Assembly: GCA_021325275.1 (NCBI GenBank)
Contig: JAJPHL010000033.1
Span: forward strand, 63,291-127,290
DNA from: Terriglobia bacterium
Lineage (GTDB): Bacteria; Acidobacteriota; Terriglobia; JAJPHL01
Length of the DNA stretch: 64,000 nt
Direction of reading: 5' to 3'
Shown here: positions 34,401-43,704 of the stretch, in pieces
Layout of the letters: every line of letters starts with the position of its first letter
Numbering within the stretch: position 1 is the stretch's first letter
The notes under the pieces: model-generated
The model's database searches: none
What the model saw: only the letters and a program-made list of their open reading frames with translations
Told to the model about the DNA's origin: nothing
Made by a program: the position numbers and the translations under genes

Positions 34401-36212
34401 ATGGACCTTGGTGGATGGGTTCGAGACATTCTCGAACAACCCAAGAATATCGGTTTCACCGCCGCGGACTTGGTGGAGTTCGTGTGGGCGTTCCTGATTG
34501 TCGCGTGCGTGTGCGCATGGCATTGGATCACCGACGCCGTGCGCGTCATCACGCGCCGCACCTGGCTCGCGATGGCGACGCTGGCCGCGCTGCCGGTGGC
34601 GTTGCGTCTGGCATTGCTGGCGAATCATCCCGCGCCGTCGCCGGACCTCTACGACGAGTTCGCGCATCTTCTCACGGCCGATACGCTGCTGCACGGGCGT
34701 CTCGCGAATCCGATGCATCCGATGCATCGTTTCTTCGAGACGTTCTTCGTCTTGCAGGAACCAACGTACAGTTCCATCTATCCGCTTGGGCAAGGCGCGT
34801 TTCTGGCGCTCGGCCGCGCCGTGTTCGGCCATCCATGGGCGGGCGTGCTGCTTTCGACGGCGGCGTTTTGCGCACTTTGTTACTGGATGCTGCTGGCGTG
34901 GACCACGCCGGAATGGGCGCTGGTCGGCGGCCTGCTCGCCGTGGCGGAATTTGGTCCGCTGAATTATTGGATGAACAGCTATTGGGGCGGCAGCGTTCCG
35001 GCGTTGGCCGGATGTCTGGTGTTCGGCGCGATCCCGCGTGTGATGGCGAACTTCGGCGTGATTCCCTCGGCGTTGCTCGGACTCGGCCTGGCGATTCATT
35101 GGCTGACGCGTCCGTACGAAACGGTTTTTCTCTGGCTCGGGGCGGTGATTTACGGTGCGGCCGCGATGCGGAAGTACCCGCGACCATGGCCCTGGCGGCG
35201 AATTGTCCTCGCGAAGGCCGCTTGCATCGCCGTGCTTCTACCCGCGATCGCGATCACGCTCCTGCACGACAAGCGCGTCACAGGGCGCTGGTTGGAATTG
35301 CCGGAAACGCTCAGCATGGAGCAATACGGCGTGCCCGCCGCGCTCACGTTTCAATCGCCGGCCGTAGCGCATCGCGCGTTGACGCCGGAACAAGGACTCG
35401 ATTACCGGATGCAAACGGGATTCGGTCCGCCGGGCGGGGAAACGCTGCGCACGTTTTTTGAACGCCTGGAGTATCGCGTCCGCTTCTATCGTTTCTTCTA
35501 TCTCACGCCGCTGTATCTGGCGCTGCCGTTTTTTTTCCCGCTGCTAAGCCAGTGGCGATTCGCGTGGGTCGCCGCGACGCTCGCGCTGTTCGCCGTGGGG
35601 ATCAACTTTTTCCCGGCGTATCAGCATCATTATCTCGGCGGCGTGGCGTGCTTGTTTGTGCTGGTGAGCGTGGCGTCGCTCGAACGGCTCTCGCGCGTGG
35701 AAATCCGCGGGACACCGGCCGGAAAAGATGGCGCGAAACTGCTGGTGATCGCCTGCGCCGTGCAATTTGTCTTCTGGTACAGCGTGCACGTTTTCGAAAA
35801 CCAAGATTTCACCGCGGCGCTGCGGCCGTATGAGACATGGGATTTCATCAATCATCGCGGGAACGAACGGCGTGCCGTCGTGAATCATCAGTTGGCGCAA
35901 ACGCCAGGGAAGCAGCTGGTTTTCGTACGCTATCGATATCCTGGCCATGCGTTTCAAGACGAGTGGGTTTACAACGCGGCCGACATTGATGGCTCGCGCG
36001 TGGTGTGGGCGCGCGATTTGGGCCCGGACGAAGACGAAAAACTGCGGGTTTACTATCCCGACCGCGCGGCTTGGCTTCTCGAGCCCGACTTCCGTCCGCC
36101 GCGCCTGACCAAGTACGAGCCGCCGCCTCCACCGCCGCCGAAACAGGAGGAAGGCAAGCCGATGAAGATGCAATTGCTGCCGGTCCCGATGGCCAAGCCG
36201 GGAGATCCATAG
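34401..36212 (+). CDS. polytopic membrane protein, GT-C-fold glycosyltransferase-like (ArnT/PMT-like)
   Basis: About 11 TM helices with a DE motif (PDLYDEF) in the first extracytoplasmic loop, as in GT39/GT83 enzymes. C-terminal Pro-rich tail (EPPPPPPPKQ). Confidence 0.5.
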   Translation: MDLGGWVRDILEQPKNIGFTAADLVEFVWAFLIVACVCAWHWITDAVRVITRRTWLAMATLAALPVALRLALLANHPAPSPDLYDEFAHLLTADTLLHGRLANPMHPMHRFFETFFVLQEPTYSSIYPLGQGAFLALGRAVFGHPWAGVLLSTAAFCALCYWMLLAWTTPEWALVGGLLAVAEFGPLNYWMNSYWGGSVPALAGCLVFGAIPRVMANFGVIPSALLGLGLAIHWLTRPYETVFLWLGAVIYGAAAMRKYPRPWPWRRIVLAKAACIAVLLPAIAITLLHDKRVTGRWLELPETLSMEQYGVPAALTFQSPAVAHRALTPEQGLDYRMQTGFGPPGGETLRTFFERLEYRVRFYRFFYLTPLYLALPFFFPLLSQWRFAWVAATLALFAVGINFFPAYQHHYLGGVACLFVLVSVASLERLSRVEIRGTPAGKDGAKLLVIACAVQFVFWYSVHVFENQDFTAALRPYETWDFINHRGNERRAVVNHQLAQTPGKQLVFVRYRYPGHAFQDEWVYNAADIDGSRVVWARDLGPDEDEKLRVYYPDRAAWLLEPDFRPPRLTKYEPPPPPPPKQEEGKPMKMQLLPVPMAKPGDP

Positions 36213-36230
36213 GAAAAGCGCTCGCGGCGT

Positions 36231-36313
36231 TGTCAGAACCATTCGCGGTAGCGAATCGGCGCGCTGCCCATGGATGCGCGATCCCATCCGCTACCGCGGA
36301 TGGTTCTGACAAC
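36231..36313. promoter_or_regulatory. 23-bp inverted repeat (tgtcagaaccattcgcggtagcg ... cgctaccgcggatggttctgacaa) enclosing a 36-bp GC-rich loop; terminator or PadR operator
   Basis: One mismatch between the arms. Sits directly after the GT-C-like gene's stop and 25 nt upstream of PadR module 2. Confidence 0.45.
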
Positions 36314-36337
36314 CGCGGCCAGCCCTTGTAGAATATC

Positions 36338-36691
36338 GTGTCGCGTTATATCGCGATGCGTTATACTGACTTCATGGCTGAACTGAGTCCGCAAGTACTC
36401 CACATTCTCCTGTCACTCGCCGAAAGCGATCAGCACGGTTACGCGATTATGCAGGACGTCGCGGCCCGCACCAATGGGCAACTGCGACTCAGTCCCGGCA
36501 CGCTGTACGGGTCCATCAAGCGCATGCTCGACGACGGCTTGATCGCGGAATTGCGCGCGCGGCCGCTCGAACGGCGTAGGCGCTATCGCCTGACGGCGCT
36601 CGGGCGCCAAGCGCTGAAATCGGAAATCGCGCGAATGTCGGACATGGTGCGACAAGCGAGGGCGTATGGACTCGTACCCAAAAGGGCCTAA
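36338..36691 (+). CDS. PadR family transcriptional regulator (module 2)
   Basis: LHILLSLAESDQHGYAIMQDVAARTNGQLRLSPGTLYGSIKRMLDDGLIAEL...RRYRLTALGRQAL. The true start may be the internal MAELSP. Overlaps the ADOP start by 26 nt. Confidence 0.85.
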   Translation: MSRYIAMRYTDFMAELSPQVLHILLSLAESDQHGYAIMQDVAARTNGQLRLSPGTLYGSIKRMLDDGLIAELRARPLERRRRYRLTALGRQALKSEIARMSDMVRQARAYGLVPKRA

Positions 36692-39287
36692 GTTATATCG
36701 AGCGCTCCTCTACGCGTACCCGGCGGAGTTTCGCCACGAGTACGGCTCGGAGATGGAAGACGCCTTTGCCGGACGTTTAGCCGCAGAGCCTGCCGCACGG
36801 GTATGGATGGCCGCGGCACTCGACGTTTTCATCGCCGCGCCGCGCGAGCATTTCGCCATTCTGAAATCGGACCTGCGTGTAGGCGTCCGGGTGTTCGCGA
36901 AGTCGCCGGTCACGACGTTCGTCGCGTTGCTCTCGATGGCGCTGGGCATCGGTGCGGCGACGGCGGTCTTCAGCTTGGTGTACGCCGTGCTCCTCCGCGC
37001 GTTTCCGTACGGAGACGTCTCGCGGATCGCTTACGTGTGGACACCGAATCCGAAATTCACCGGCGCTCCCCGGGAGCTGGGTCCATCGGTGCCCGATTTT
37101 GCGGCGTGGCGTAAGGAGCAGCGCTCCTTCACCGAATTGGCGGGCTTCAACGAGGGACACTTTCGCGTCAAGAGCGGGAATTCCGTTTCGAACTACGACG
37201 GCGCGTGGGTCACGGGCAATTTCTTCCAAACTTTACGCGCGAATGCAGAACTGGGCCGCACGATCGTTCCGGACGACGATCAACCGGGCCATGACCTTGT
37301 CGCTGTGATCAGCGACGCGATGTGGCACGCCGATTTTGGCGGCGCTCCCGATGTGCTGGGAAAAACGATTGCGCATAGCAAGCAGACGTTTGTGATCATC
37401 GGCGTGATGCCGCATGAGTTTTCCTATCCACATTCGAGCGATTTTCCGCCCACCATCCTCAACGTGGAACGCGCGGATCTTTGGATGCCGTTCGGATGGG
37501 CCGAAAAAAGAATGACCGAGCGCGGGGAGAATTTCGATTCGCTCACGGCGTTCGGACGATTGCGTCCCGGCGTCACGATTCGGCAGGCGCAAGCGGAATT
37601 CGCGGCGATGGAAGCGCGGCTCGACCCGCTCTATCCGGAATTGTTTCGCGGCTGGAGAGTTTTCGTGCAGTCCTTCGCCGACGCCGCGGCGGGTGAAGTC
37701 CGCCTATTGATGTGGCTGCTGCTGGGTGCCGTCGCGATCGTTTTGCTGATCGCGTGCAGCAACGTCGCGGGATTGCTTACGGCCCAGGCCGCGGCGCGCG
37801 TGCATGAAATGGGCGTGCGGGCGGCGCTGGGCGCGGCGCGCGGACGGCTCGTCCGGCAGGTGCTCACCGAATCTCTGATGCTGGCCGTCGCAGGCGGCGC
37901 GCTGGGAACGGCGCTGGCGATGGGCGCGATGCGTCTCGTGGTTCGCTTGAATCCGGGGAATATTCCGCGGCTCGCGGAAATCTCCCTCGACGGCCACGTG
38001 CTGGCGTTTATGTTGGCGGCGACGCTTCTGACCGGAATCGTTTTTGGACTCGCGCCGGCGCTTGTCGCCTCGCGCGTCGACTTGATGGAGTTGCTGAAGT
38101 CGGGCGGTCGCGGACTCGCGGGCGGCCAGCGGCTTCGCGGCAGTTTGGTGACGACGCAAGTCGCACTCGCCGTCGTCTTGCTGTCGTCAGCGGGTTTGCT
38201 TTTGCGCAGCTACTGGAATGTGCAGCGCGTGGAGAAAGGGTTCTCGCTCTCTACCATCACCGGCCTCATCGCCTTGGACCTCGGCAACGACCGATACGCG
38301 ACCGCGCCGAAGCAAGACGCGTTCCGACACGCGGTCTTGCAGCGGGTGCGCGCGATTCCCGGCGTGGAAGCGGCGGGTGCGGTCACCGGGGCGCCGCTGA
38401 GCCACAGTGAGTCGCTGGGATTTCTCGAAGTCGACGGCTATCCGAATTCGAAAGACCAAGTGACCGACGGCCGCCGCGCTACCGACGGCTATTTCGAGGC
38501 CATGGGTATTCGTGTGCTCTCCGGTCGTGCGTTGGCTCCCGCGGATCGCAACGTTGTCGTCATCAGTAAAGGATTCGCGGACCGCTATTTCGCAGGACGC
38601 CAGGCCGTCGGCGGCAAAGTGCGCTTGAGCCATAACGAGGGGGCGCCGTGGTTCACGGTGATCGGCGTAGTCGACGATGTGCGTCACTCGAATTTGGAAG
38701 ACGTGCCGCGCCCGGTTGTCTATCAGCCGATGGGGCAAGGCATCGAGCTGCGCTTGGACGTCGCGATCCGCGCGACGCTGCCGCCGGGGCAGGTCGCGGC
38801 CGCCCTTCGCCAGATTGTCCGCGACATCGATCCGGAATTAAGTGTCGCGCAGTTCCTCACGATGGCGGAACGCGTCGACGAAGCCAGCGCGCGCCGGCGT
38901 TTTCAAGCGGTGATGCTGACGGTTTTCGCCGGGATCGCCGTGTTTCTCCCGCTCGTGGGACTCTATGGACTGATGGCCTACGCGGTGAAACAGCGCACCG
39001 CTGAAATCGGCATTCGCATGACGCTCGGCGCGTCGCGCCGTCGCGTGATCGCGATGGTATTGCGTCAAGGGATCGGGTGGGTCGCGGGCGGAATCGCCGT
39101 GGGACTCGCCGGGGCGCTCGCGAGCGCGAGAGTCGCGGCGAGTTTTCTCTATGGGATCACGCCCGCCGATCCGCTGACCTTCGCGGCCGTTCCTTTGTTC
39201 TTGCTGATCGTGGCGATGATGGCGTCGCTGATCCCGGCGTGGAACGCGGCGCGCATTAATCCCGTAGACGCGCTGCGCAGCGAGTAA
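36666..39287 (+). CDS. ADOP-family duplicated FtsX/MacB-like ABC permease (module 2)
   Basis: 873 aa, two FtsX permease repeats. N-terminal ...VFAKSPVTTFVALLSMALGIGAATAVFS; C-terminal ...INPVDALRSE. Confidence 0.9.
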   Translation: MDSYPKGPKLYRALLYAYPAEFRHEYGSEMEDAFAGRLAAEPAARVWMAAALDVFIAAPREHFAILKSDLRVGVRVFAKSPVTTFVALLSMALGIGAATAVFSLVYAVLLRAFPYGDVSRIAYVWTPNPKFTGAPRELGPSVPDFAAWRKEQRSFTELAGFNEGHFRVKSGNSVSNYDGAWVTGNFFQTLRANAELGRTIVPDDDQPGHDLVAVISDAMWHADFGGAPDVLGKTIAHSKQTFVIIGVMPHEFSYPHSSDFPPTILNVERADLWMPFGWAEKRMTERGENFDSLTAFGRLRPGVTIRQAQAEFAAMEARLDPLYPELFRGWRVFVQSFADAAAGEVRLLMWLLLGAVAIVLLIACSNVAGLLTAQAAARVHEMGVRAALGAARGRLVRQVLTESLMLAVAGGALGTALAMGAMRLVVRLNPGNIPRLAEISLDGHVLAFMLAATLLTGIVFGLAPALVASRVDLMELLKSGGRGLAGGQRLRGSLVTTQVALAVVLLSSAGLLLRSYWNVQRVEKGFSLSTITGLIALDLGNDRYATAPKQDAFRHAVLQRVRAIPGVEAAGAVTGAPLSHSESLGFLEVDGYPNSKDQVTDGRRATDGYFEAMGIRVLSGRALAPADRNVVVISKGFADRYFAGRQAVGGKVRLSHNEGAPWFTVIGVVDDVRHSNLEDVPRPVVYQPMGQGIELRLDVAIRATLPPGQVAAALRQIVRDIDPELSVAQFLTMAERVDEASARRRFQAVMLTVFAGIAVFLPLVGLYGLMAYAVKQRTAEIGIRMTLGASRRRVIAMVLRQGIGWVAGGIAVGLAGALASARVAASFLYGITPADPLTFAAVPLFLLIVAMMASLIPAWNAARINPVDALRSE

Positions 39288-39350
39288 GGACTTCGCGGAC
39301 TACTTGCGTCTTGGCTTCGGCGTAAATGCTGCATGGTTTCCGAACTGGCG
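39258..39350. repeat. ~90-bp direct repeat, copy 1 (ADOP 3' end with opposite-strand grpB C-terminal relic); partner at 40306-40398
   Basis: About 75% nucleotide identity to 40306-40398. The minus-strand translation ETMQHLRRSQDASS... resembles the GrpB C-terminus ETVQHYADAKTQVV.... Confidence 0.65.
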
Positions 39351-39520
39351 AAGATCATGGTGACCGACTAGCGACGATCCAGCCACGTAACCAAGCCGGG
39401 CCAGCCCGCCGTCAACACTCTTCCGGCAATGGACTGGCCCGCTTGGCTTTTCTTGGAATCGCATTGCAAGGGCTTGATTTTCGGTCCGTCTTACGTCAAC
39501 ATGTATACGTGAGAGGTTCT

Positions 39521-39814
39521 ATGGATAAGGTCTTTTCCGCGCGGCTGGGCGTCGAGGTGGTGGAGGAGTTGGAGCGCGCGTGCCGCTTATTGCGAGTCAC
39601 CAAGAAGGATTTTCTGGAAGAGGCGGTCCAGTGCCGAGTCCGCCAATTGGCGCCCGAGGCGGTTCCCGGCGGTCCTGGCAACATCTGGGAAAAAACCTGC
39701 GGGGCCTGGAAGCGCAAGGAGGCGCCGCCGGCAACCATCGCCCGCATTCGCAAGACGATGGAAGACGATTTCCATCGCCATCACCGGCGCAAGAATGCGA
39801 AGTTATCTCGATAG
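39521..39814 (+). CDS. vapB: VapB-like antitoxin (ribbon-helix-helix/CopG-type)
   Basis: 97 aa, MDKVFSARLGVEVVEELERACRLLRVTKKDFLEEAV. RBS gagagg precedes it and it overlaps the PIN gene by 20 nt. Start set at Met 65 codons into the supplied ORF. Confidence 0.7.
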   Translation: MDKVFSARLGVEVVEELERACRLLRVTKKDFLEEAVQCRVRQLAPEAVPGGPGNIWEKTCGAWKRKEAPPATIARIRKTMEDDFHRHHRRKNAKLSR

Positions 39815-40178
39815 CGACGTGCTGATCGGGCACCTTCGCGGCGAGCGCCGGGCGTCCGCGTTACTGCAACGGCTTTCCACTGAAAGCCACGGCGATCTCT
39901 GGATCGGCGCGCTGCAACGCATCGAAATCGTCTTCTTCATGCATCCGCATGAGACCGACGACACTGAAGCGTTCCTGCAGCGCTTCCGCACGGATCCACT
40001 GACGGAAGAGATCGTGGATTCTGCCGGCGTGCTCTATCGCCAGTGGCATCCCTCTCACGGCACGGGCATCAACGATTGCGTCCTGGCAGCCATGGCGTTG
40101 CTCAGCGGAGGCAGGATTTATACCCGGAATCTGAAACATTTCCCGATGCCGGGGCTGTCCGTTGTCCGCGCTTGGTAG
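39795..40178 (+). CDS. vapC: VapC PIN-domain toxin
   Basis: YLDSDVLIGHL... with conserved acidic residues (D6, E, D, D near the C-terminus NDCVLAAMAL). 127 aa. Confidence 0.85.
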   Translation: MRSYLDSDVLIGHLRGERRASALLQRLSTESHGDLWIGALQRIEIVFFMHPHETDDTEAFLQRFRTDPLTEEIVDSAGVLYRQWHPSHGTGINDCVLAAMALLSGGRIYTRNLKHFPMPGLSVVRAW

Positions 40179-40287
40179 AGGAAAGCGCTGAAAGATCAGG
40201 TATTCGATGCCGGGCTCTCCGGCAGATGACGTTATATCGCGAAGCGTTATATTTGTTTGATTGACTGGGCTCAGCCCCCCAAGTGCT

Positions 40288-40821
40288 TCAGATTCTGCTA
40301 TCGCTCGCGGAAAGATCCGGTGGACACCCTGCGCAGCGAGTAAGAATTTCCTTCACCACTTGCGTCTTGGCGTCGGCGTAGTGCTGCACGGTTTCCCATT
40401 CGCTCTGGGCCAACTGCCGTTTGGTTCGCTCGTACAACGCGCGATCCTCAAGATTCGCGCGGAGGTGATCGCGGAACGCGACCATTCGCTCGATCTCCTC
40501 GCAGTCCTCGGAAAAAACATGCAAGTGAACTTCGCTGTCGCGCGAGGTGAACATGCGGTGCTCAAACCAAGCAGGCTCGCGATGACGCAGCGGGAATCCC
40601 GCGGCTTCCAGCGCCAGGACATACGCCGGCTCGTCGGCGGAGTCGGCTACGGCCAGCGTGATGTCGATGATCGGTTTCGCGGCGATTCCCGGGACGGCGG
40701 TGGATCCGGTGTGTTCGATGCGCAACGCGCGCGGGCCCAGTGCCGCGCGAATGCGTGTGGCTTCGCGCTCGAACAGGCGGGGCCATTCGGGATCGTATTC
40801 GGCGAGACGGATCGCGACCAT
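40288..40821 (-). CDS. GrpB family protein (UPF0157 nucleotidyltransferase-like)
   Basis: EYDPEWPRLFEREATRIRAALG...IEHTGSTAVPGIAAKPIIDI...HLHVF is the GrpB signature. Its 3' end lies inside direct-repeat copy 2, which also carries an ADOP C-terminal relic DPVDTLRSE* on the + strand. Confidence 0.85.
   Translation of the reverse strand: MVAIRLAEYDPEWPRLFEREATRIRAALGPRALRIEHTGSTAVPGIAAKPIIDITLAVADSADEPAYVLALEAAGFPLRHREPAWFEHRMFTSRDSEVHLHVFSEDCEEIERMVAFRDHLRANLEDRALYERTKRQLAQSEWETVQHYADAKTQVVKEILTRCAGCPPDLSASDSRI
40306..40398. repeat. ~90-bp direct repeat, copy 2 (grpB 3' end plus ADOP C-terminal relic)
   Basis: ctgcgcagcgagtaag...acttgcgtcttggc.tcggcgta..tgctgca.ggtttcc is shared with 39258-39350. 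Confidence 0.65.
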
Positions 40822-40838
40822 GGTGTATATTGTGGCCC

Positions 40839-41771
40839 ATGCGAATCCTTACTGCCGTTTGTTTCCTCATGGTCGCGGCCGCGGCCCAGGCGCCGCAAAC
40901 TTTTTCGACTCAAATGCCGGCGTCCGTGCCCGCGGTGCAAGGCCCCGTCACCGAGCAGTTCGCGCTGCGCTGGATCGACGTGAAGGCCGGCGACGGCGCG
41001 CCCGCCACGCCTGGAAAGCTCTACAAAGTGCATTACACTGGCTGGCTGCGGGACGGCACGAAGTTCGATTCGTCGCGCGATCGCGAGCCGTTCACGTTCG
41101 TGCAAGGACAGCGCCAGGTGATCGCCGGATGGGAAGCCGGCTTCGAGGGCATGCGCGTCGGCGGACAGCGGCGGCTATTTTTACCATATCAATTGGCGTA
41201 CGGCGAAAAAGGGCAGGGCAACACGATCGGCCCGAAGGCCGAATTGATCTTCGACGTGGAGTTGCTCGACGTGACGGAACCGCCGGCCGTGGCTGTGGCC
41301 GTCGACGTGTTGGTTCCACTGAAGGAAATGGAGGATCAAGTCCAGTCACTGTTGAAAGCCGTGCCCGACGACAAGCTCGACTGGCGGCCGGGACCGGGCG
41401 TGCGGTCGTTCCGCGAAGTTTTTCTGCACATCGCGGCGGGAAACAAATTGATCCTGGCGATCGCCACGAGTCAGCCCAAGGGCGACGACCTGAAGAAACT
41501 GATCGGCGAAGCGCAAGGAGCCGAACATGCCACCGGAGGCAAAGACGCGATCGCCCAGGCGCTGACCGATAGCTTTGCGGCGGTGCGCAAGTCGCTGGAA
41601 TCGGCGCGCGCGGGCGCGTTGGCGCGCGAAGCGGAGTTTTTCGGTACGCCGACAACGCGCCGCGGGGTCTACACGCATCTTGACACGCATATCGCGGAGC
41701 ATTTGGGTCAGTTGATCGCGTACTCGCGCGTGAATGGGATCGTGCCGCCGTGGTCGATGCCGTCGAAGTAG
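40839..41771 (+). CDS. FKBP-type peptidyl-prolyl cis-trans isomerase fused to a C-terminal DinB_2 (DUF664) domain, secreted
   Basis: Signal peptide MRILTAVCFLMVAAAAQA. FKBP core (KLYKVHYTGWLRDGTKFDSSRDREPFTFVQGQRQVIAGWEAGFEGMRVGGQRRLFLPYQLAYG...LIFDVELL). C-terminus W.PGPGVRSFREVFLHIAAG...HIAEHLGQL is DinB-like. Start set at Met 33 codons into the supplied ORF. Confidence 0.75.
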   Translation: MRILTAVCFLMVAAAAQAPQTFSTQMPASVPAVQGPVTEQFALRWIDVKAGDGAPATPGKLYKVHYTGWLRDGTKFDSSRDREPFTFVQGQRQVIAGWEAGFEGMRVGGQRRLFLPYQLAYGEKGQGNTIGPKAELIFDVELLDVTEPPAVAVAVDVLVPLKEMEDQVQSLLKAVPDDKLDWRPGPGVRSFREVFLHIAAGNKLILAIATSQPKGDDLKKLIGEAQGAEHATGGKDAIAQALTDSFAAVRKSLESARAGALAREAEFFGTPTTRRGVYTHLDTHIAEHLGQLIAYSRVNGIVPPWSMPSK

Positions 41772-41772
41772 G

Positions 41773-42165
41773 TTAGAGCAGTTCGATTCGTGCGCGATGG
41801 CCCGGCGCAGCGGCGAGGCGTTTATCGCGCGTTACCAACGGCACACCGAGCGATTCCGCGAGCGCGACGTAAGCGGAGTCGTAGGCCGTTAGGTTCCGTC
41901 GCAGTTCCCAAATCCTCGAAATGAAGAGCACGTGGGAGTATCGCGTAATGGGAAGATGGGCGTAGTCGTCGAGCAATACTGCAACGCGGTCACGATCCAG
42001 ATCGCCGGCGCGCTCCAGCTTGCGCAGTGTTTGAATCACTTCCAGATCCAACAAATGGGGAGCGTGCAGTTGGGCGTCTGCAGCGAACATGCGGTCGGTC
42101 GCGCTTTTCGATCCGGGTTGCCTCAGGAGCCCGTAGACAACCGCGGACGCATCCGGCACCATCAT
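41773..42165 (-). CDS. vapC: VapC PIN-domain toxin (second pair)
   Basis: MMVPDASAVVYGLL...LLDLEVIQTL...DSAYVALAESLGVPLVTRDKRL is the PIN fold with conserved D and E. ATGA overlap with the upstream antitoxin. Confidence 0.8.
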   Translation of the reverse strand: MMVPDASAVVYGLLRQPGSKSATDRMFAADAQLHAPHLLDLEVIQTLRKLERAGDLDRDRVAVLLDDYAHLPITRYSHVLFISRIWELRRNLTAYDSAYVALAESLGVPLVTRDKRLAAAPGHRARIELL

Positions 42166-42392
42166 CGGCTATCGCGGTCCGCGCGGATCAAGTCTTCGAT
42201 GGGAATGGATGGTGTAACCGGCTGGCGGGTTTTCAGGCGCTCGTAGAATTCTTCCATCGTTGGGACGTTAGCCAATCGCTCAATTTCTTCCCGGAGATAG
42301 CCTGAGAGGGACATGCCCTTCTTGGCGGCGCGCGCCTTCAGTTTGCGGTGCACCGGACCGGGGACGTGGCGAATCTGGATCATCGTCGACAT
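42162..42392 (-). CDS. vapB: VapB/FitA-like antitoxin (second pair)
   Basis: 76 aa, MIQIRHVPGPVHRKLKARAAKKGMSLSGYLREEIERLA, i.e. Arc/RHH or plasmid-stability type. Confidence 0.75.
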   Translation of the reverse strand: MSTMIQIRHVPGPVHRKLKARAAKKGMSLSGYLREEIERLANVPTMEEFYERLKTRQPVTPSIPIEDLIRADRDSR

Positions 42393-42552
42393 GCTTCAAT
42401 TCTAGGTGCATGTGCGGCACATGTCAACGAGCGGCGGATCGGCACGGCGGTCACGGCAGGTTGATCCTTCACAGAACTTAGCCTAAAATACAAAGTGGAC
42501 TGTGTTTATAATGTTCATCGCAATCTTTTCTCGCATCTTGGGGAGGGCCACT

Positions 42553-43704
42553 ATGGCAAACCGTTATTCCATTCTCTGGAAGTTGTCGCTGCTCGTGGCG
42601 TTTTGCGCCGCGCCCGTTTTCGCGCAGGTCGGCGCCATTGAAGGCGACGTCAAGAACGCCGACGGATCGCCCGCCATCGGGGCGCAGATCGTCATCGACC
42701 GCACCGACATGAAGGGCCACTACGACGTCAAGGTGAAAGACAAGAAGACCGGCCACTACTACTACGGCGGCCTTCCGCTCGGCACGTACAAGGTGTCGGT
42801 GGTCATCGACGGGAAACCCATGGACTCCGTGAGCGGCGTCAGGGTCGGATTGGGCGAGCCCATCAAGGTCGACTTCGACTTGAAGCAAGCGCAATTGCGC
42901 GCGCAAGCGGCGCAAGCGGGCATGGTAATTCCGGAAGCGCAGGCGGGCCAAGCGCAGCCGAAGATCTCCAAGGAAGAACAGGCCAAGATCGAGGAAGTCA
43001 ACAAGAAGAACGAGGAAATCAAGAAGAAGAACGCGGCGCTCACCGGCGGTTTCAATGCCGGTCTCGCCGCCATGCAGGCCAAGGATTATGCGGAAGCCAT
43101 CAAGCAATTCCAGACGGCCGCCGAGGTCGATCCCAACCAGAGCGCCGTTTGGGCGAACATGGGTGAAGCGTACAACCAGTTGTCGAAGACCAAATCCGGC
43201 GACGAGCGCAAAGAGGCGTTGTCCAAGGGCACCGAGGCCTATCAGAAGGCCGTCGATCTCAAGGCGGACGACGGATCGCTGCATCACAACTTGGGTTTGA
43301 TGTACGTGAACTCCGGACAAGTCGACAAGGGCGTGATCGAGTTGAAGAAGGCGGCCGAACTGCAGCCCGCCAATGCCGGACAGTATTACTACAACCTGGG
43401 TGCGGTGCTCATCAACAACAATCGCACCGACGAAGCCGTGCAAGCGTTCCAAGACGCCGTCAAGGCCGATCCCACCAAAGCCGACGCGTACTTCCAGATC
43501 GGCACGGCGCTGATGGGCAAGGCGACCACCGACACCAAGACGGGCAAGATCACCCCCGCACCGGGTACCATCGAAGGTTTCCAGAAGTATCTGGACCTGT
43601 CGCCGAATGGTCCCAACGCCGAAACGGCGAAAGCGATGATCGCGGCGCTCGGCGGCACGGTGATCACGGAAATCAAATCGGACACCAAGAAGAAGAAGCC
43701 CTAA
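42553..43704 (+). CDS. secreted carboxypeptidase-regulatory-like domain + TPR repeat protein
   Basis: Signal peptide. N-terminal CarbopepD_reg-like beta-sandwich (GAIEGDVKNADGSPAIGAQIVIDRTDMKGHYDVKV...GTYKVSVVIDGKP). Lys/Glu coiled region. Four or five TPRs (AVWANMGEAY, LHHNLGLMY, YYYNLGAVL, AYFQIGTAL). RBS gggaggg. Start set at Met 17 codons into the supplied ORF. Confidence 0.75.
   Translation: MANRYSILWKLSLLVAFCAAPVFAQVGAIEGDVKNADGSPAIGAQIVIDRTDMKGHYDVKVKDKKTGHYYYGGLPLGTYKVSVVIDGKPMDSVSGVRVGLGEPIKVDFDLKQAQLRAQAAQAGMVIPEAQAGQAQPKISKEEQAKIEEVNKKNEEIKKKNAALTGGFNAGLAAMQAKDYAEAIKQFQTAAEVDPNQSAVWANMGEAYNQLSKTKSGDERKEALSKGTEAYQKAVDLKADDGSLHHNLGLMYVNSGQVDKGVIELKKAAELQPANAGQYYYNLGAVLINNNRTDEAVQAFQDAVKADPTKADAYFQIGTALMGKATTDTKTGKITPAPGTIEGFQKYLDLSPNGPNAETAKAMIAALGGTVITEIKSDTKKKKP

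What the first reader, a model, noticed from the sequence alone, without database searches (positions are those of the whole stretch)
39258..40398. vapBC cassette inserted into a tail-to-tail ADOP/grpB overlap, leaving ~90-bp direct repeats and reciprocal gene relics
The last ~30 nt of the ADOP permease plus ~60 nt downstream (39258-39350) recur at 40306-40398 at roughly 75% identity. Copy 2 still encodes an ADOP C-terminal relic (DPVDTLRSE*) on the + strand. Copy 1 encodes a degenerate GrpB C-terminus on the - strand (ETMQHL... versus ETVQHY...). The simplest history is that ADOP and grpB once overlapped convergently at their 3' ends, and a ~1-kb segment carrying vapB-vapC (39521..40178) was inserted with duplication of the overlap. 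Each copy then kept one gene end intact. This is a cleanly visible toxin–antitoxin insertion footprint.
Basis: seen in the sequence. Interest (0 to 1): 0.55.

Follow-up and report, generated by a model that had tools for sequence, protein, structure and literature searches.

The report
Scars of a second padR–ADOP–grpB module
The ~90-bp repeat flanking a vapBC toxin–antitoxin cassette is real, but it is the leftover of two old, diverged copies of a three-gene module (padR–ADOP permease–grpB) that each lost different genes, not a duplication made when vapBC inserted; it is ordinary genome decay.

Summary
The repeat is real. Window 39250-39341 matches 40306-40396 over 92 columns at 79% identity with one 1-nt indel (in-window BLASTN E 5e-17). 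Three independent assemblies carry the identical sequence.

The 85 nt just upstream of copy 2 (40230-40314) match the promoter and first 17 codons of the padR gene that precedes ADOP (36344-36426; E 6.5e-10). So 40224-40343 is a collapsed second padR–ADOP operon, followed by an intact grpB. Copy 1 is the last ~28 codons of another grpB.

Differences between relics and intact genes are mostly synonymous: codon positions 7/2/20, dN/dS about 0.12, Fisher P 1.6e-6. Both modules therefore evolved as working genes for a long time (dS about 1) and were truncated recently.

Related contigs:
- padR–ADOP><grpB with the same 32-nt convergent overlap and no vapBC: L084, L087.
- padR–ADOP–FKBP with neither grpB nor vapBC: L085, L086, L088.

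The ~717-bp vapBC cassette occurs at 80-91% identity in at least four unrelated contexts, never beside this module.

The ancestral overlap and the accessory status of vapBC are supported. The duplication made by the insertion is not. Interest is low to moderate.

The parts
36229..36313 (.). 85-nt near-perfect hairpin between the upstream 603-aa gene and padR. It is context only, not part of the repeat.
   Evidence: Folds at -66.9 kcal/mol, z -9.1. The arms occur only here in the window.
36344..36426 (+). Module 1 padR promoter, operator and first 17 codons. This is the intact partner of the padR relic at 40230-40314.
   Evidence: BLASTN 75% over 85 nt, E 6.5e-10. Alignments. The promoter architecture is conserved in orthologs.
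36374..36691 (+). padR of module 1, intact. The start was chosen by homology to orthologs; the ORF opens at GTG 36338.
   Evidence: Pfam PadR 1e-15. 72-75% identical to the PadR of L084-L088.
36666..39287 (+). ADOP-family duplicated permease of module 1, intact, 873 aa.
   Evidence: TIGR03434 862 bits against a cut-off of 622. MacB_PCD and FtsX domains. Orthologs are 67-70% identical.
39250..39341 (+). Repeat copy 1: the real ADOP 3' end plus the grpB relic.
39256..39341 (-). grpB relic of module 1: the last ~28 codons with one +T frameshift, ending at its own stop, which overlaps ADOP by 32 nt. Reads ETMQH / YAEAKTQVVREVLTRCAARLRD*.
   Evidence: The overlap length and frame are the same as in L084 and L087.
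39342..39469 (.). 128-nt spacer of unknown origin between the grpB relic and the vapBC cassette.
   Evidence: No match in the window or in related loci.
39470..40187 (+). vapBC cassette, from promoter/operator to a few nt past the vapC stop. vapB-like gene 39521-39814; PIN-domain vapC 39795-40178; the two genes overlap by 20 nt.
   Evidence: PIN domain. 80-85% nt identity to L089/L100, L090/L091, L104 and L106, with homology ending at these coordinates.
40188..40223 (.). 36-nt spacer between the cassette and the module 2 scar.
   Evidence: No homology to the flanks of other cassette copies.
40224..40313 (+). Module 2 padR relic: fossil promoter ATGACG-16-TATATT (40226-40253), the operator-like motif GTTATATCGCGAAGCGTTATA, and 17 padR codons with one +C frameshift.
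40314..40343 (+). Module 2 ADOP relic: the last 9 codons plus stop (DPVDTLRSE*), joined directly and out of frame to the padR relic. This junction is the scar of a ~2.8-kb deletion.
   Evidence: It shares the VD..RSE tail with ADOP1 only.
40306..40396 (+). Repeat copy 2.
40288..40821 (-). grpB of module 2, intact, 177 aa. Its last 9 codons (LSASDSRI*) run into the antisense of the padR relic, because the deletion removed the original stop.
   Evidence: Pfam GrpB 6e-53 over residues 4-162. Tail analysis.
40839..41771 (+). FKBP/DinB gene, the syntenic right flank. In L085, L086 and L088 it follows ADOP directly.

Best explanation
The two ~90-bp repeats are the right-hand ends of two anciently diverged copies of a three-gene module: padR, an ADOP permease, and a convergent grpB whose 3' end overlaps ADOP by 32 nt. 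Module 1 (36344-39341) keeps padR and ADOP, but its grpB is cut down to the last ~28 codons. Module 2 keeps grpB (40288-40821), but its padR-ADOP operon has collapsed, through a ~2.8-kb internal deletion, into a 120-bp scar (40224-40343) that joins padR codon 17 to the last nine ADOP codons. One working copy of each gene is left.

The vapBC cassette (39470-40187) is a separate, horizontally mobile promoter-to-stop unit lying between the two modules. It did not create the repeats.

Shown here: the two colinear homologies, the purifying-selection signature, the single frameshift in each relic, the ancestral overlap in relatives, and the independent distribution of vapBC.

Inferred: the order of events and the source of module 2. 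I slightly favour the view that module 2 came in from a related lineage by recombination, with a homologous anchor on the grpB/FKBP side and an illegitimate joint inside the resident grpB, and that the redundant genes were then lost quickly (about 0.45). An old in-genome tandem duplication is nearly as likely (about 0.35).

The scar itself probably has no function. Its visible side effects are a 9-codon extension of GrpB and a fossil padR promoter that points into the 3' end of grpB.
For: 1. A second colinear homology: 40230-40314 matches 36344-36426, the padR promoter and 5' CDS (E 6.5e-10). It lies directly next to the ADOP-tail relic at 40314-40343. The fossil promoter ATGACG-16-TATATT lines up with the TTGACA-17-TATACT conserved in five orthologous loci.
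2. Relic-versus-intact differences fall 7/2/20 on codon positions 1/2/3 (binomial P 9e-5). For padR alone the counts are 2/1/11. Nei-Gojobori estimates are pS 0.56, pN 0.12 and dN/dS about 0.12, with Fisher P 1.6e-6. Replacements are conservative (D>E, I>V, and K>R through three nucleotide changes).
3. Each relic has only one frameshift and no premature stop, so inactivation is recent relative to dS of about 1.
4. Module 2 is sister to module 1. They share a padR N-terminus three codons shorter than in relatives, QVL/ILL residues, the ADOP tail VD..RSE and a short GrpB tail.
5. L084 and L087 show a single padR-ADOP><grpB with a 32-nt overlap in the same frame. L085, L086 and L088 show padR-ADOP-FKBP.
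6. vapBC copies at 80-91% identity lie in at least four other contexts, none with padR, ADOP or grpB.
7. The sequence is identical in three independent assemblies.
Against: No genome with two intact modules was found. The 5.8-billion-protein collection holds no ADOP between 72% and 100% identity and no GrpB above 73%, so the intermediate state is inferred, not seen.

The selection test rests on only 43 codons.

The 128-nt and 36-nt spacers flanking vapBC are unexplained.

The window's GrpB is only 57% identical to the L084 GrpB but 66-73% identical to GrpBs of other phyla, so the history of grpB may include replacement.

The source of module 2 cannot be decided from the data. The collapse could also have happened in a donor genome before transfer.
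Confidence: 0.8

Rival explanations
1. A ~1-kb vapBC segment inserted into a single ADOP><grpB overlap and duplicated ~90 bp of target. Each copy then kept one gene end while the other end decayed.
For: The repeats do flank vapBC directly. A single overlapping ADOP><grpB exists in relatives. vapBC is mobile.
Against: This model does not explain the padR promoter and 5' CDS relic fused to the ADOP relic. The orphaned halves should have drifted neutrally, but dN/dS is about 0.12 and 20 of 29 differences are at third codon positions. At 79% identity, neutral relics should carry stops and several indels; each has one frameshift. The cassette ends at 39470 and 40187, separated from the repeats by 128 and 36+90 nt of other sequence. 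A ~90-bp target duplication fits no transposition mechanism I know of (own knowledge).
Confidence: 0.04
2. Pre-formed scar. The collapsed padR-ADOP relic arrived together with grpB, and perhaps vapBC, on a single incoming fragment whose donor had already suffered the deletion. This genome never held two working modules.
For: It is compatible with every sequence observation here: the purifying-selection signature, the recent frameshifts, and the absence of a two-module genome in the databases.
Against: A redundant padR-ADOP would have had to be lost in the donor without a second copy to replace it. The donor would then lack this ADOP, while the recipient's own grpB was truncated at the same time. 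This needs more coincidences than reciprocal loss after redundancy. No donor-like locus was found.
Confidence: 0.12
3. Chance similarity or assembly chimera. The repeats would be an artefact of metagenome assembly or of conserved ADOP C-terminal codons.
For: ADOP C-termini are strongly conserved (DPV.ALR.E), so 30 nt of the repeat could recur by paralogy alone.
Against: The similarity runs 55 nt beyond the ADOP stop. E-values are 5e-17 and 6.5e-10. Three assemblies from different samples are identical. No other ADOP 3' end in the window matches.
Confidence: 0.01

Closest known systems
Displacement arrays with orphaned 3' ends (Rhs C-terminal displacement; T6SS effector-immunity arrays in Vibrio cholerae), proposed to arise by homology-facilitated illegitimate recombination (PMC5361080; mechanism defined in PMC3240628)
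   Same: An incoming homologous module is joined next to the resident one. This leaves a truncated 3' fragment of the resident gene and a direct repeat of diverged homologous ends. One side is anchored in homology and the other is an arbitrary joint inside a gene.
   Different: Here the genes are a PadR-regulated permease operon and grpB, not polymorphic toxins. There is only one displaced unit, and the incoming (or duplicated) operon was itself later deleted. The mechanism is inferred and was not tested. In-genome tandem duplication remains a live alternative.
Reciprocal loss (pseudogenisation) after segmental or operon duplication
   Same: Two colinear copies existed. Each gene survives in only one copy, and the relics keep a coding-type substitution pattern with recent frameshifts and deletions.
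   Different: The relics are reduced to 85-120 bp. The two copies are separated by an unrelated mobile cassette. Because the module contains a convergent 32-nt gene overlap, each repeat carries the ends of two genes on opposite strands.
Type II VapBC toxin-antitoxin cassettes as horizontally mobile chromosomal accessory genes (review PMC7167474)
   Same: A small antitoxin gene overlaps a PIN-domain toxin gene by 20 nt, with its own promoter/operator. Distribution is patchy: the same cassette lies in unrelated neighbourhoods, two of them rich in other TA-like genes.
   Different: The antitoxin matches no Pfam or NCBIfam model. The toxin scores far below the NCBIfam VapC equivalog cut-offs (19.6 bits against 80). 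No recombinase, IS element or integron signature is associated with it.
Target-site duplication of transposable elements
   Same: Direct repeats flank an accessory insert.
   Different: The repeat is about 90 bp and only 79% identical. It extends to a second block (padR), shows purifying selection, and does not abut the cassette ends. No transposase or terminal inverted repeats are present.

Membership tests
Insertion footprint / target-site duplication made by the vapBC insert | The duplicated sequence is confined to the target and abuts the ends of the inserted element. | tested here: not met
   The cassette ends at 39470 and 40187, while the repeats end at 39341 and start at 40306. A further duplicated block (padR 5' end) lies at 40230-40314.
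Insertion footprint / target-site duplication made by the vapBC insert | The copies were identical at the time of the event, so the orphaned gene ends evolve neutrally afterwards. | tested here: not met
   Codon-position counts 7/2/20; dN/dS about 0.12; Fisher P 1.6e-6.
Insertion footprint / target-site duplication made by the vapBC insert | Relatives have an empty site holding a single copy of the target. | tested here: inconclusive
   L084 and L087 have a single ADOP><grpB overlap without vapBC. They are distant (ADOP 68% identical), and the fully syntenic loci L085, L086 and L088 lack grpB too.
Remnant of a duplicated or paralogous operon (pseudogene scar) | Colinear homology to both ends of the intact unit, in the same order and orientation. 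| tested here: met
   padR 5' end (E 6.5e-10), then the ADOP 3' end and grpB 3' end (E 5e-17), in the same order as 36344...39341.
Remnant of a duplicated or paralogous operon (pseudogene scar) | A coding-type substitution pattern together with disabling lesions. | tested here: met
   dN/dS about 0.12. A +C frameshift in the padR relic, a +T frameshift in the grpB relic, a 2.8-kb deletion and an out-of-frame junction.
Homology-facilitated illegitimate recombination / displacement | One end of the incoming DNA recombines in homology and the other joins illegitimately, usually with a deletion of resident DNA. | not testable with these tools
   The truncation of grpB1 at an arbitrary codon is compatible with this. 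No donor or pre-event genome is available.
VapBC type II toxin-antitoxin | PIN-domain toxin. | tested here: met
   PF01850 at 3e-08, 34.6 bits against a cut-off of 23.6. NCBIfam VapC equivalogs match only weakly (19.6 bits against 80).
VapBC type II toxin-antitoxin | A small upstream antitoxin gene, translationally coupled to the toxin gene and belonging to a known DNA-binding antitoxin fold. | tested here: inconclusive
   A 97-aa ORF overlaps vapC by 20 nt and co-occurs with it in every context. It has no Pfam or NCBIfam hit. Its structure was not predicted.
VapBC type II toxin-antitoxin | Toxin RNase activity that is neutralised by the antitoxin. | not testable with these tools
   This needs an experiment.
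ADOP family duplicated permease (TIGR03434) | A score above the curated cut-off and a duplicated MacB_PCD+FtsX architecture. | tested here: met
   861.9 bits against 622.3. Two MacB_PCD and two FtsX stretches.
GrpB (PF04229) | A full-length domain match. | tested here: met
   6.3e-53, covering profile positions 2-159 of 159.

The most novel reading that the evidence does not exclude
padR-ADOP><grpB may be a functionally coupled three-gene unit. A PadR-controlled MacB-like permease and a GrpB nucleotidyltransferase-fold protein would be tied together by a conserved 32-nt antisense 3' overlap. That would explain why the overlap and its frame persist across lineages whose GrpB proteins are only 57% identical, and why both window modules carried it. 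A distant ADOP paralog also sits convergent to grpB in another Bryobacteraceae genome (L060). On this reading, the fossil PadR-type promoter at 40226-40253, which now fires into the 3' end of grpB, could still place grpB under PadR-dependent antisense control.
Probability: 0.15. Interest if true: 0.45.

Novelty: new member of a known kind. Interest (0 to 1): 0.25.

Why it matters
The main value is as a correction. A tidy 'toxin–antitoxin insertion footprint' turns out to be the eroded ends of two diverged operon copies. Flanking repeats around accessory cassettes should therefore be tested for the extent of homology and for codon-position bias before they are read as insertion scars.

The locus is also a clear, datable example of reciprocal gene loss after a module became redundant. 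Each relic still shows the signature of past selection.

Two smaller leads follow. One is a conserved convergent 32-nt overlap between an ADOP permease and grpB, both of unknown physiological role in Acidobacteria. The other is a ~717-bp vapBC cassette found in at least five neighbourhoods.

None of this changes current understanding of TA systems or of genome evolution.

Tried and rejected
- **GTDB genome scan with GrpB.** It returned 80 loci, with best identity 66-70% and mostly from other phyla. No close relative turned up. Only L060 (Bryobacteraceae) had a convergent ADOP, a 33% paralog.
- **GrpB search of 5.8 billion proteins.** Nothing above 73% identity, so no intact module 2 could be found through grpB.
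- **ADOP search.** Nothing between 72% and 100% identity, so no ADOP2-like sequence was found. No ADOP hit ends in DPVDTLRSE.
- **VapC searches.** These looked for a donor with vapBC next to padR-ADOP. None of the other contexts has it.
- **Spacers 39342-39469 and 40188-40223.** Sensitive BLASTN against the window and all related loci found nothing.
- **Rfam at E ≤ 0.1 over 36000-42600.** The only hit was a spurious miRNA match that falls on the hairpin at 36217-36326.
- **Terminator scan.** No more sites than in the shuffles.
- **Literature searches.** Nothing specific was found on ADOP/PadR in Acidobacteria or on TA insertion footprints.
- **A frame error of my own.** My first codon-position run used the wrong grpB frame. 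I discarded it and redid it.
- **The sharp cassette ends as evidence for a dedicated mobility mechanism.** I considered this and rejected it. At 15-20% coding divergence, neutral flanks that moved with the cassette would no longer align, so sharp ends are expected anyway.


Full report
**1. What is in the window**

Open reading frames and domain searches give this order on the + strand:
- a 603-aa membrane protein (34401-36212);
- padR (36374-36691; the ORF opens at 36338);
- an 873-aa ADOP-family permease (36666-39287; TIGR03434 at 862 bits against a cut-off of 622);
- a 97-aa ORF with no family hit (39521-39814), overlapping by 20 nt a PIN-domain gene (39795-40178).
- grpB on the - strand (40288-40821; PF04229, 6e-53);
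- an FKBP/DinB gene (40839-41771);
- a second PIN/FitA-like pair on the - strand (41773-42392).

The window comes from a 157-kb soil metagenome contig (JGI 3300005533). Two other assemblies from different samples carry the region 36200-40900 at 100% identity, so the arrangement is not an assembly artefact.

**2.

The best local alignment pairs 39250-39341 with 40306-40396: 92 columns, 79% identity, one 1-nt indel. The score is 52. Two thousand shuffles gave at most 19, and the in-window BLASTN E-value is 5e-17. A 24-nt core occurs only at these two sites.

Copy 2 reads DPVDTLRSE* in the ADOP direction. Copy 1 reads ETMQH on the opposite strand. After one extra T it continues YAEAKTQVVREVLTRCAARLRD*, against GrpB ETVQHYADAKTQVVKEILTRCAGCPPD.

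**3.

I scored the two repeat regions against every other 300-nt piece of the window. One outlier appeared: 40230-40314, directly upstream of copy 2, matches 36344-36426 (75% over 85 nt, E 6.5e-10). That stretch is the promoter and first 17 codons of the padR gene that heads the ADOP operon.

Five orthologous loci share the architecture TATATCGC-TTGACA-GTATATCGC..CGCGTTATACT-N6-ATG. The stretch at 40224-40260 keeps the -35 (ATGACG), the repeated GTTATA motif and the -10 (TATATT). The consensus scan reports it as a promoter-like site.

So 40224-40343 is a padR promoter and 5' end joined, out of frame, to the last nine ADOP codons. It is a second padR-ADOP operon from which about 2.8 kb has been deleted. 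The duplicated unit is roughly 3 kb (36344 to 39341), not about 90 bp.

**4. The relics evolved as genes**

I compared each relic with its intact partner in the partner's reading frame, after removing one extra nucleotide from the padR relic and one from the grpB relic.

| Segment | Differences at codon positions 1/2/3 |
|---|---|
| padR, first 6 codons | 2/1/4 |
| padR, next 11 codons | 0/0/7 |
| ADOP tail | 2/0/3 |
| grpB outside the overlap, two segments | 1/0/1 and 2/1/5 |
| Total | 7/2/20 |

The total departs from an even spread with binomial P 9e-5. It still does so against a null of 0.43 that allows one neutral branch (P 0.004).

Nei-Gojobori counts over 43 codons give pS 0.56, pN 0.12, dS about 1.05 and dN/dS about 0.12 (Fisher P 1.6e-6). 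Replacements are conservative: D to E, I to V, V to M, and K to R through three nucleotide changes.

Each relic has one frameshift and no premature stop. Both modules were therefore under purifying selection for nearly all of a long divergence and were disabled recently. An insertion-made duplication predicts the opposite, because the orphaned halves would have drifted neutrally from the start.

**5. Relatives**

The closest ADOP proteins in the 5.8-billion-protein collection are 67-70% identical. Their contigs fall into two groups.
- **padR-ADOP followed directly by FKBP/DinB.** L085, L086 and L088 continue with the PIN/FitA pair and the same downstream genes as the window. They have neither grpB nor vapBC. 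The ADOP-FKBP spacer holds a different palindromic element in each.
- **padR-ADOP with a convergent grpB.** In L084 the grpB 3' end overlaps ADOP by 32 nt. L087 is syntenic on the left through the 603-aa gene and ends 35 nt past the ADOP stop. Those 35 nt plus the ADOP tail read KTAVVAEILARATRSAAPPPD* on the - strand, which is a GrpB C-terminus in the same relative frame.

The window's grpB relic stops at 39256-39258, giving the same 32-nt overlap. The vapBC-free state exists, though only in distant relatives.

In module 2 the deletion removed the original grpB stop. The intact grpB now runs nine codons further (LSASDSRI*) into the antisense of the padR relic.

**6. Relationship of the two modules**

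Module 2 groups with module 1 against the L084-L088 clade. Both have a padR N-terminus three codons shorter (18-19 nt from the -10 to the SPQ codons, against 27 nt). Both share QVL.ILLSLAE where relatives have QVFHILVSLAE. They share the ADOP tail VD.LRSE, where relatives have VEALRNE or VEALRAE, and a GrpB tail shorter than in L084 and L087. Module 2 keeps the ancestral -35, which module 1 has lost, so it is not a copy of present-day module 1.

**7. vapBC**

Nucleotide homology to other vapBC copies runs from 39470 to about 40185. It starts at GGGCTTGAyTT, includes a conserved TACGTCAACATGTATACGT motif, and ends at or just past the vapC stop. Copies at 80-91% protein identity lie in four other contexts:
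- in a TA-rich island, between a DUF6036 gene and a methionine-synthase-like gene (L089/L100);
- next to an MNT-type nucleotidyltransferase and a DUF433 gene (L090/L091, one locus);
- after rpsF-rpsR-rplI (L104/L105);
- before an arginine deiminase gene (L106).

None is near padR, ADOP or grpB. The cassette is therefore accessory and horizontally mobile, and it is separated from the repeats by 128 nt on the left and 36 nt plus the padR relic on the right. At this level of divergence, neutral flanks would not align anyway, so the sharp ends do not show a special mobility mechanism.

**8. Most likely history**

A lineage carrying 603aa-padR-ADOP><grpB-FKBP came to hold two diverged modules in tandem. 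The resident grpB was then cut to its last ~28 codons, at or near the point where the vapBC-bearing DNA now lies. The second padR-ADOP operon was removed by an internal deletion. One copy of each gene remains.

Two sources for module 2 fit the data.
- **Acquisition from a related lineage (about 0.45).** A homologous anchor lay on the grpB/FKBP side and an illegitimate joint inside the resident grpB, as in homology-facilitated illegitimate recombination (defined in PMC3240628; invoked for orphaned 3' ends in Rhs and T6SS arrays in PMC5361080). This naturally explains long divergence under selection followed by quick reciprocal loss, and I favour it slightly.
- **An old in-genome tandem duplication (about 0.35).**

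The scar could also have arrived pre-formed from a donor. I could not find a genome with two intact modules, so this history is inferred.

**9. Verdict**

Its central claim, that the vapBC insertion generated the repeats, is not supported. The feature is a pseudogene scar of a kind that is well understood, so interest is low to moderate. The more novel reading that remains open is that padR-ADOP><grpB is a functionally coupled unit and that the fossil promoter still acts on grpB.

Noticed in passing
window 39470-40187; L089 589-1304; L100 5674-6389; L104 5673-6382; L090 1-570; L106 3-417: The same ~717-bp vapBC unit, from promoter to stop, lies in at least five different neighbourhoods at 80-85% nt identity. 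All copies share the left end GGGCTTGAyTT and a conserved TACGTCAACATGTATACGT motif upstream of vapB. No recombinase or IS element is nearby.
   Followed up: partly
window 36229-36313: An 85-nt near-perfect hairpin (-66.9 kcal/mol, z -9) lies between the 603-aa gene and padR and is unique in the window. A promoter-like site (CTGACA-17-TAGAAT, 36306-36334) overlaps its 3' arm. The only Rfam hit in the region, a sub-threshold miRNA model, falls on it and is spurious.
   Followed up: partly
L085 10611-10812; L086 10606-10781; L088 4644-4759: In the three relatives that lack grpB, the ADOP-FKBP spacer holds a long palindromic or REP-like element. The element has a different sequence in each genome.
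   Followed up: no
window 36320-36373; L084-L088 upstream of padR: The padR promoter/operator is conserved across orthologs as TATATCGC-TTGACA-GTATATCGC..CGCGTTATACT-N6-ATG. The window's working padR has lost the TTGACA -35, while the dead module 2 copy keeps ATGACG.
   Followed up: partly
window 41773-42392 (- strand); L085 11808-12427; L086 11745-12355: A second PIN/FitA-like ribbon-helix-helix toxin-antitoxin pair is conserved in synteny with relatives (PIN 64-67% identical, antitoxin 83-88%). It is an old resident TA pair, in contrast to the patchy vapBC cassette 1.6 kb away.
   Followed up: partly
window 40288-40821 versus L084 3129-3746 and L004-L083: The window's GrpB is only 57% identical to the GrpB of L084, which sits in the same arrangement. 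It is 66-73% identical to GrpBs from Chloroflexota, Actinomycetota and Bacillota. This suggests xenologous replacement of grpB within a conserved arrangement, or very uneven evolutionary rates.
   Followed up: no
L060 9929-13294: In another Bryobacteraceae MAG, grpB lies convergent to a distant ADOP paralog (33% identical), with a 109-aa ORF between them. This is a further ADOP-grpB association.
   Followed up: no
L086 8001-10605: The ADOP ortholog in this 588-kb contig is split into three ORFs (517, 185 and 184 aa). It is either a pseudogene or carries frameshift errors from the assembly.
   Followed up: no
L087 2397-7556: Relative L087 has an arsenic-resistance-like island (LMWPc, ArsR-type HTH_5, SBF/Acr3, MIP, MFS) inserted between the 603-aa gene and padR. 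L085 has an ABC-transporter pair at the same position. This intergenic site is a hotspot for accessory genes.
   Followed up: no
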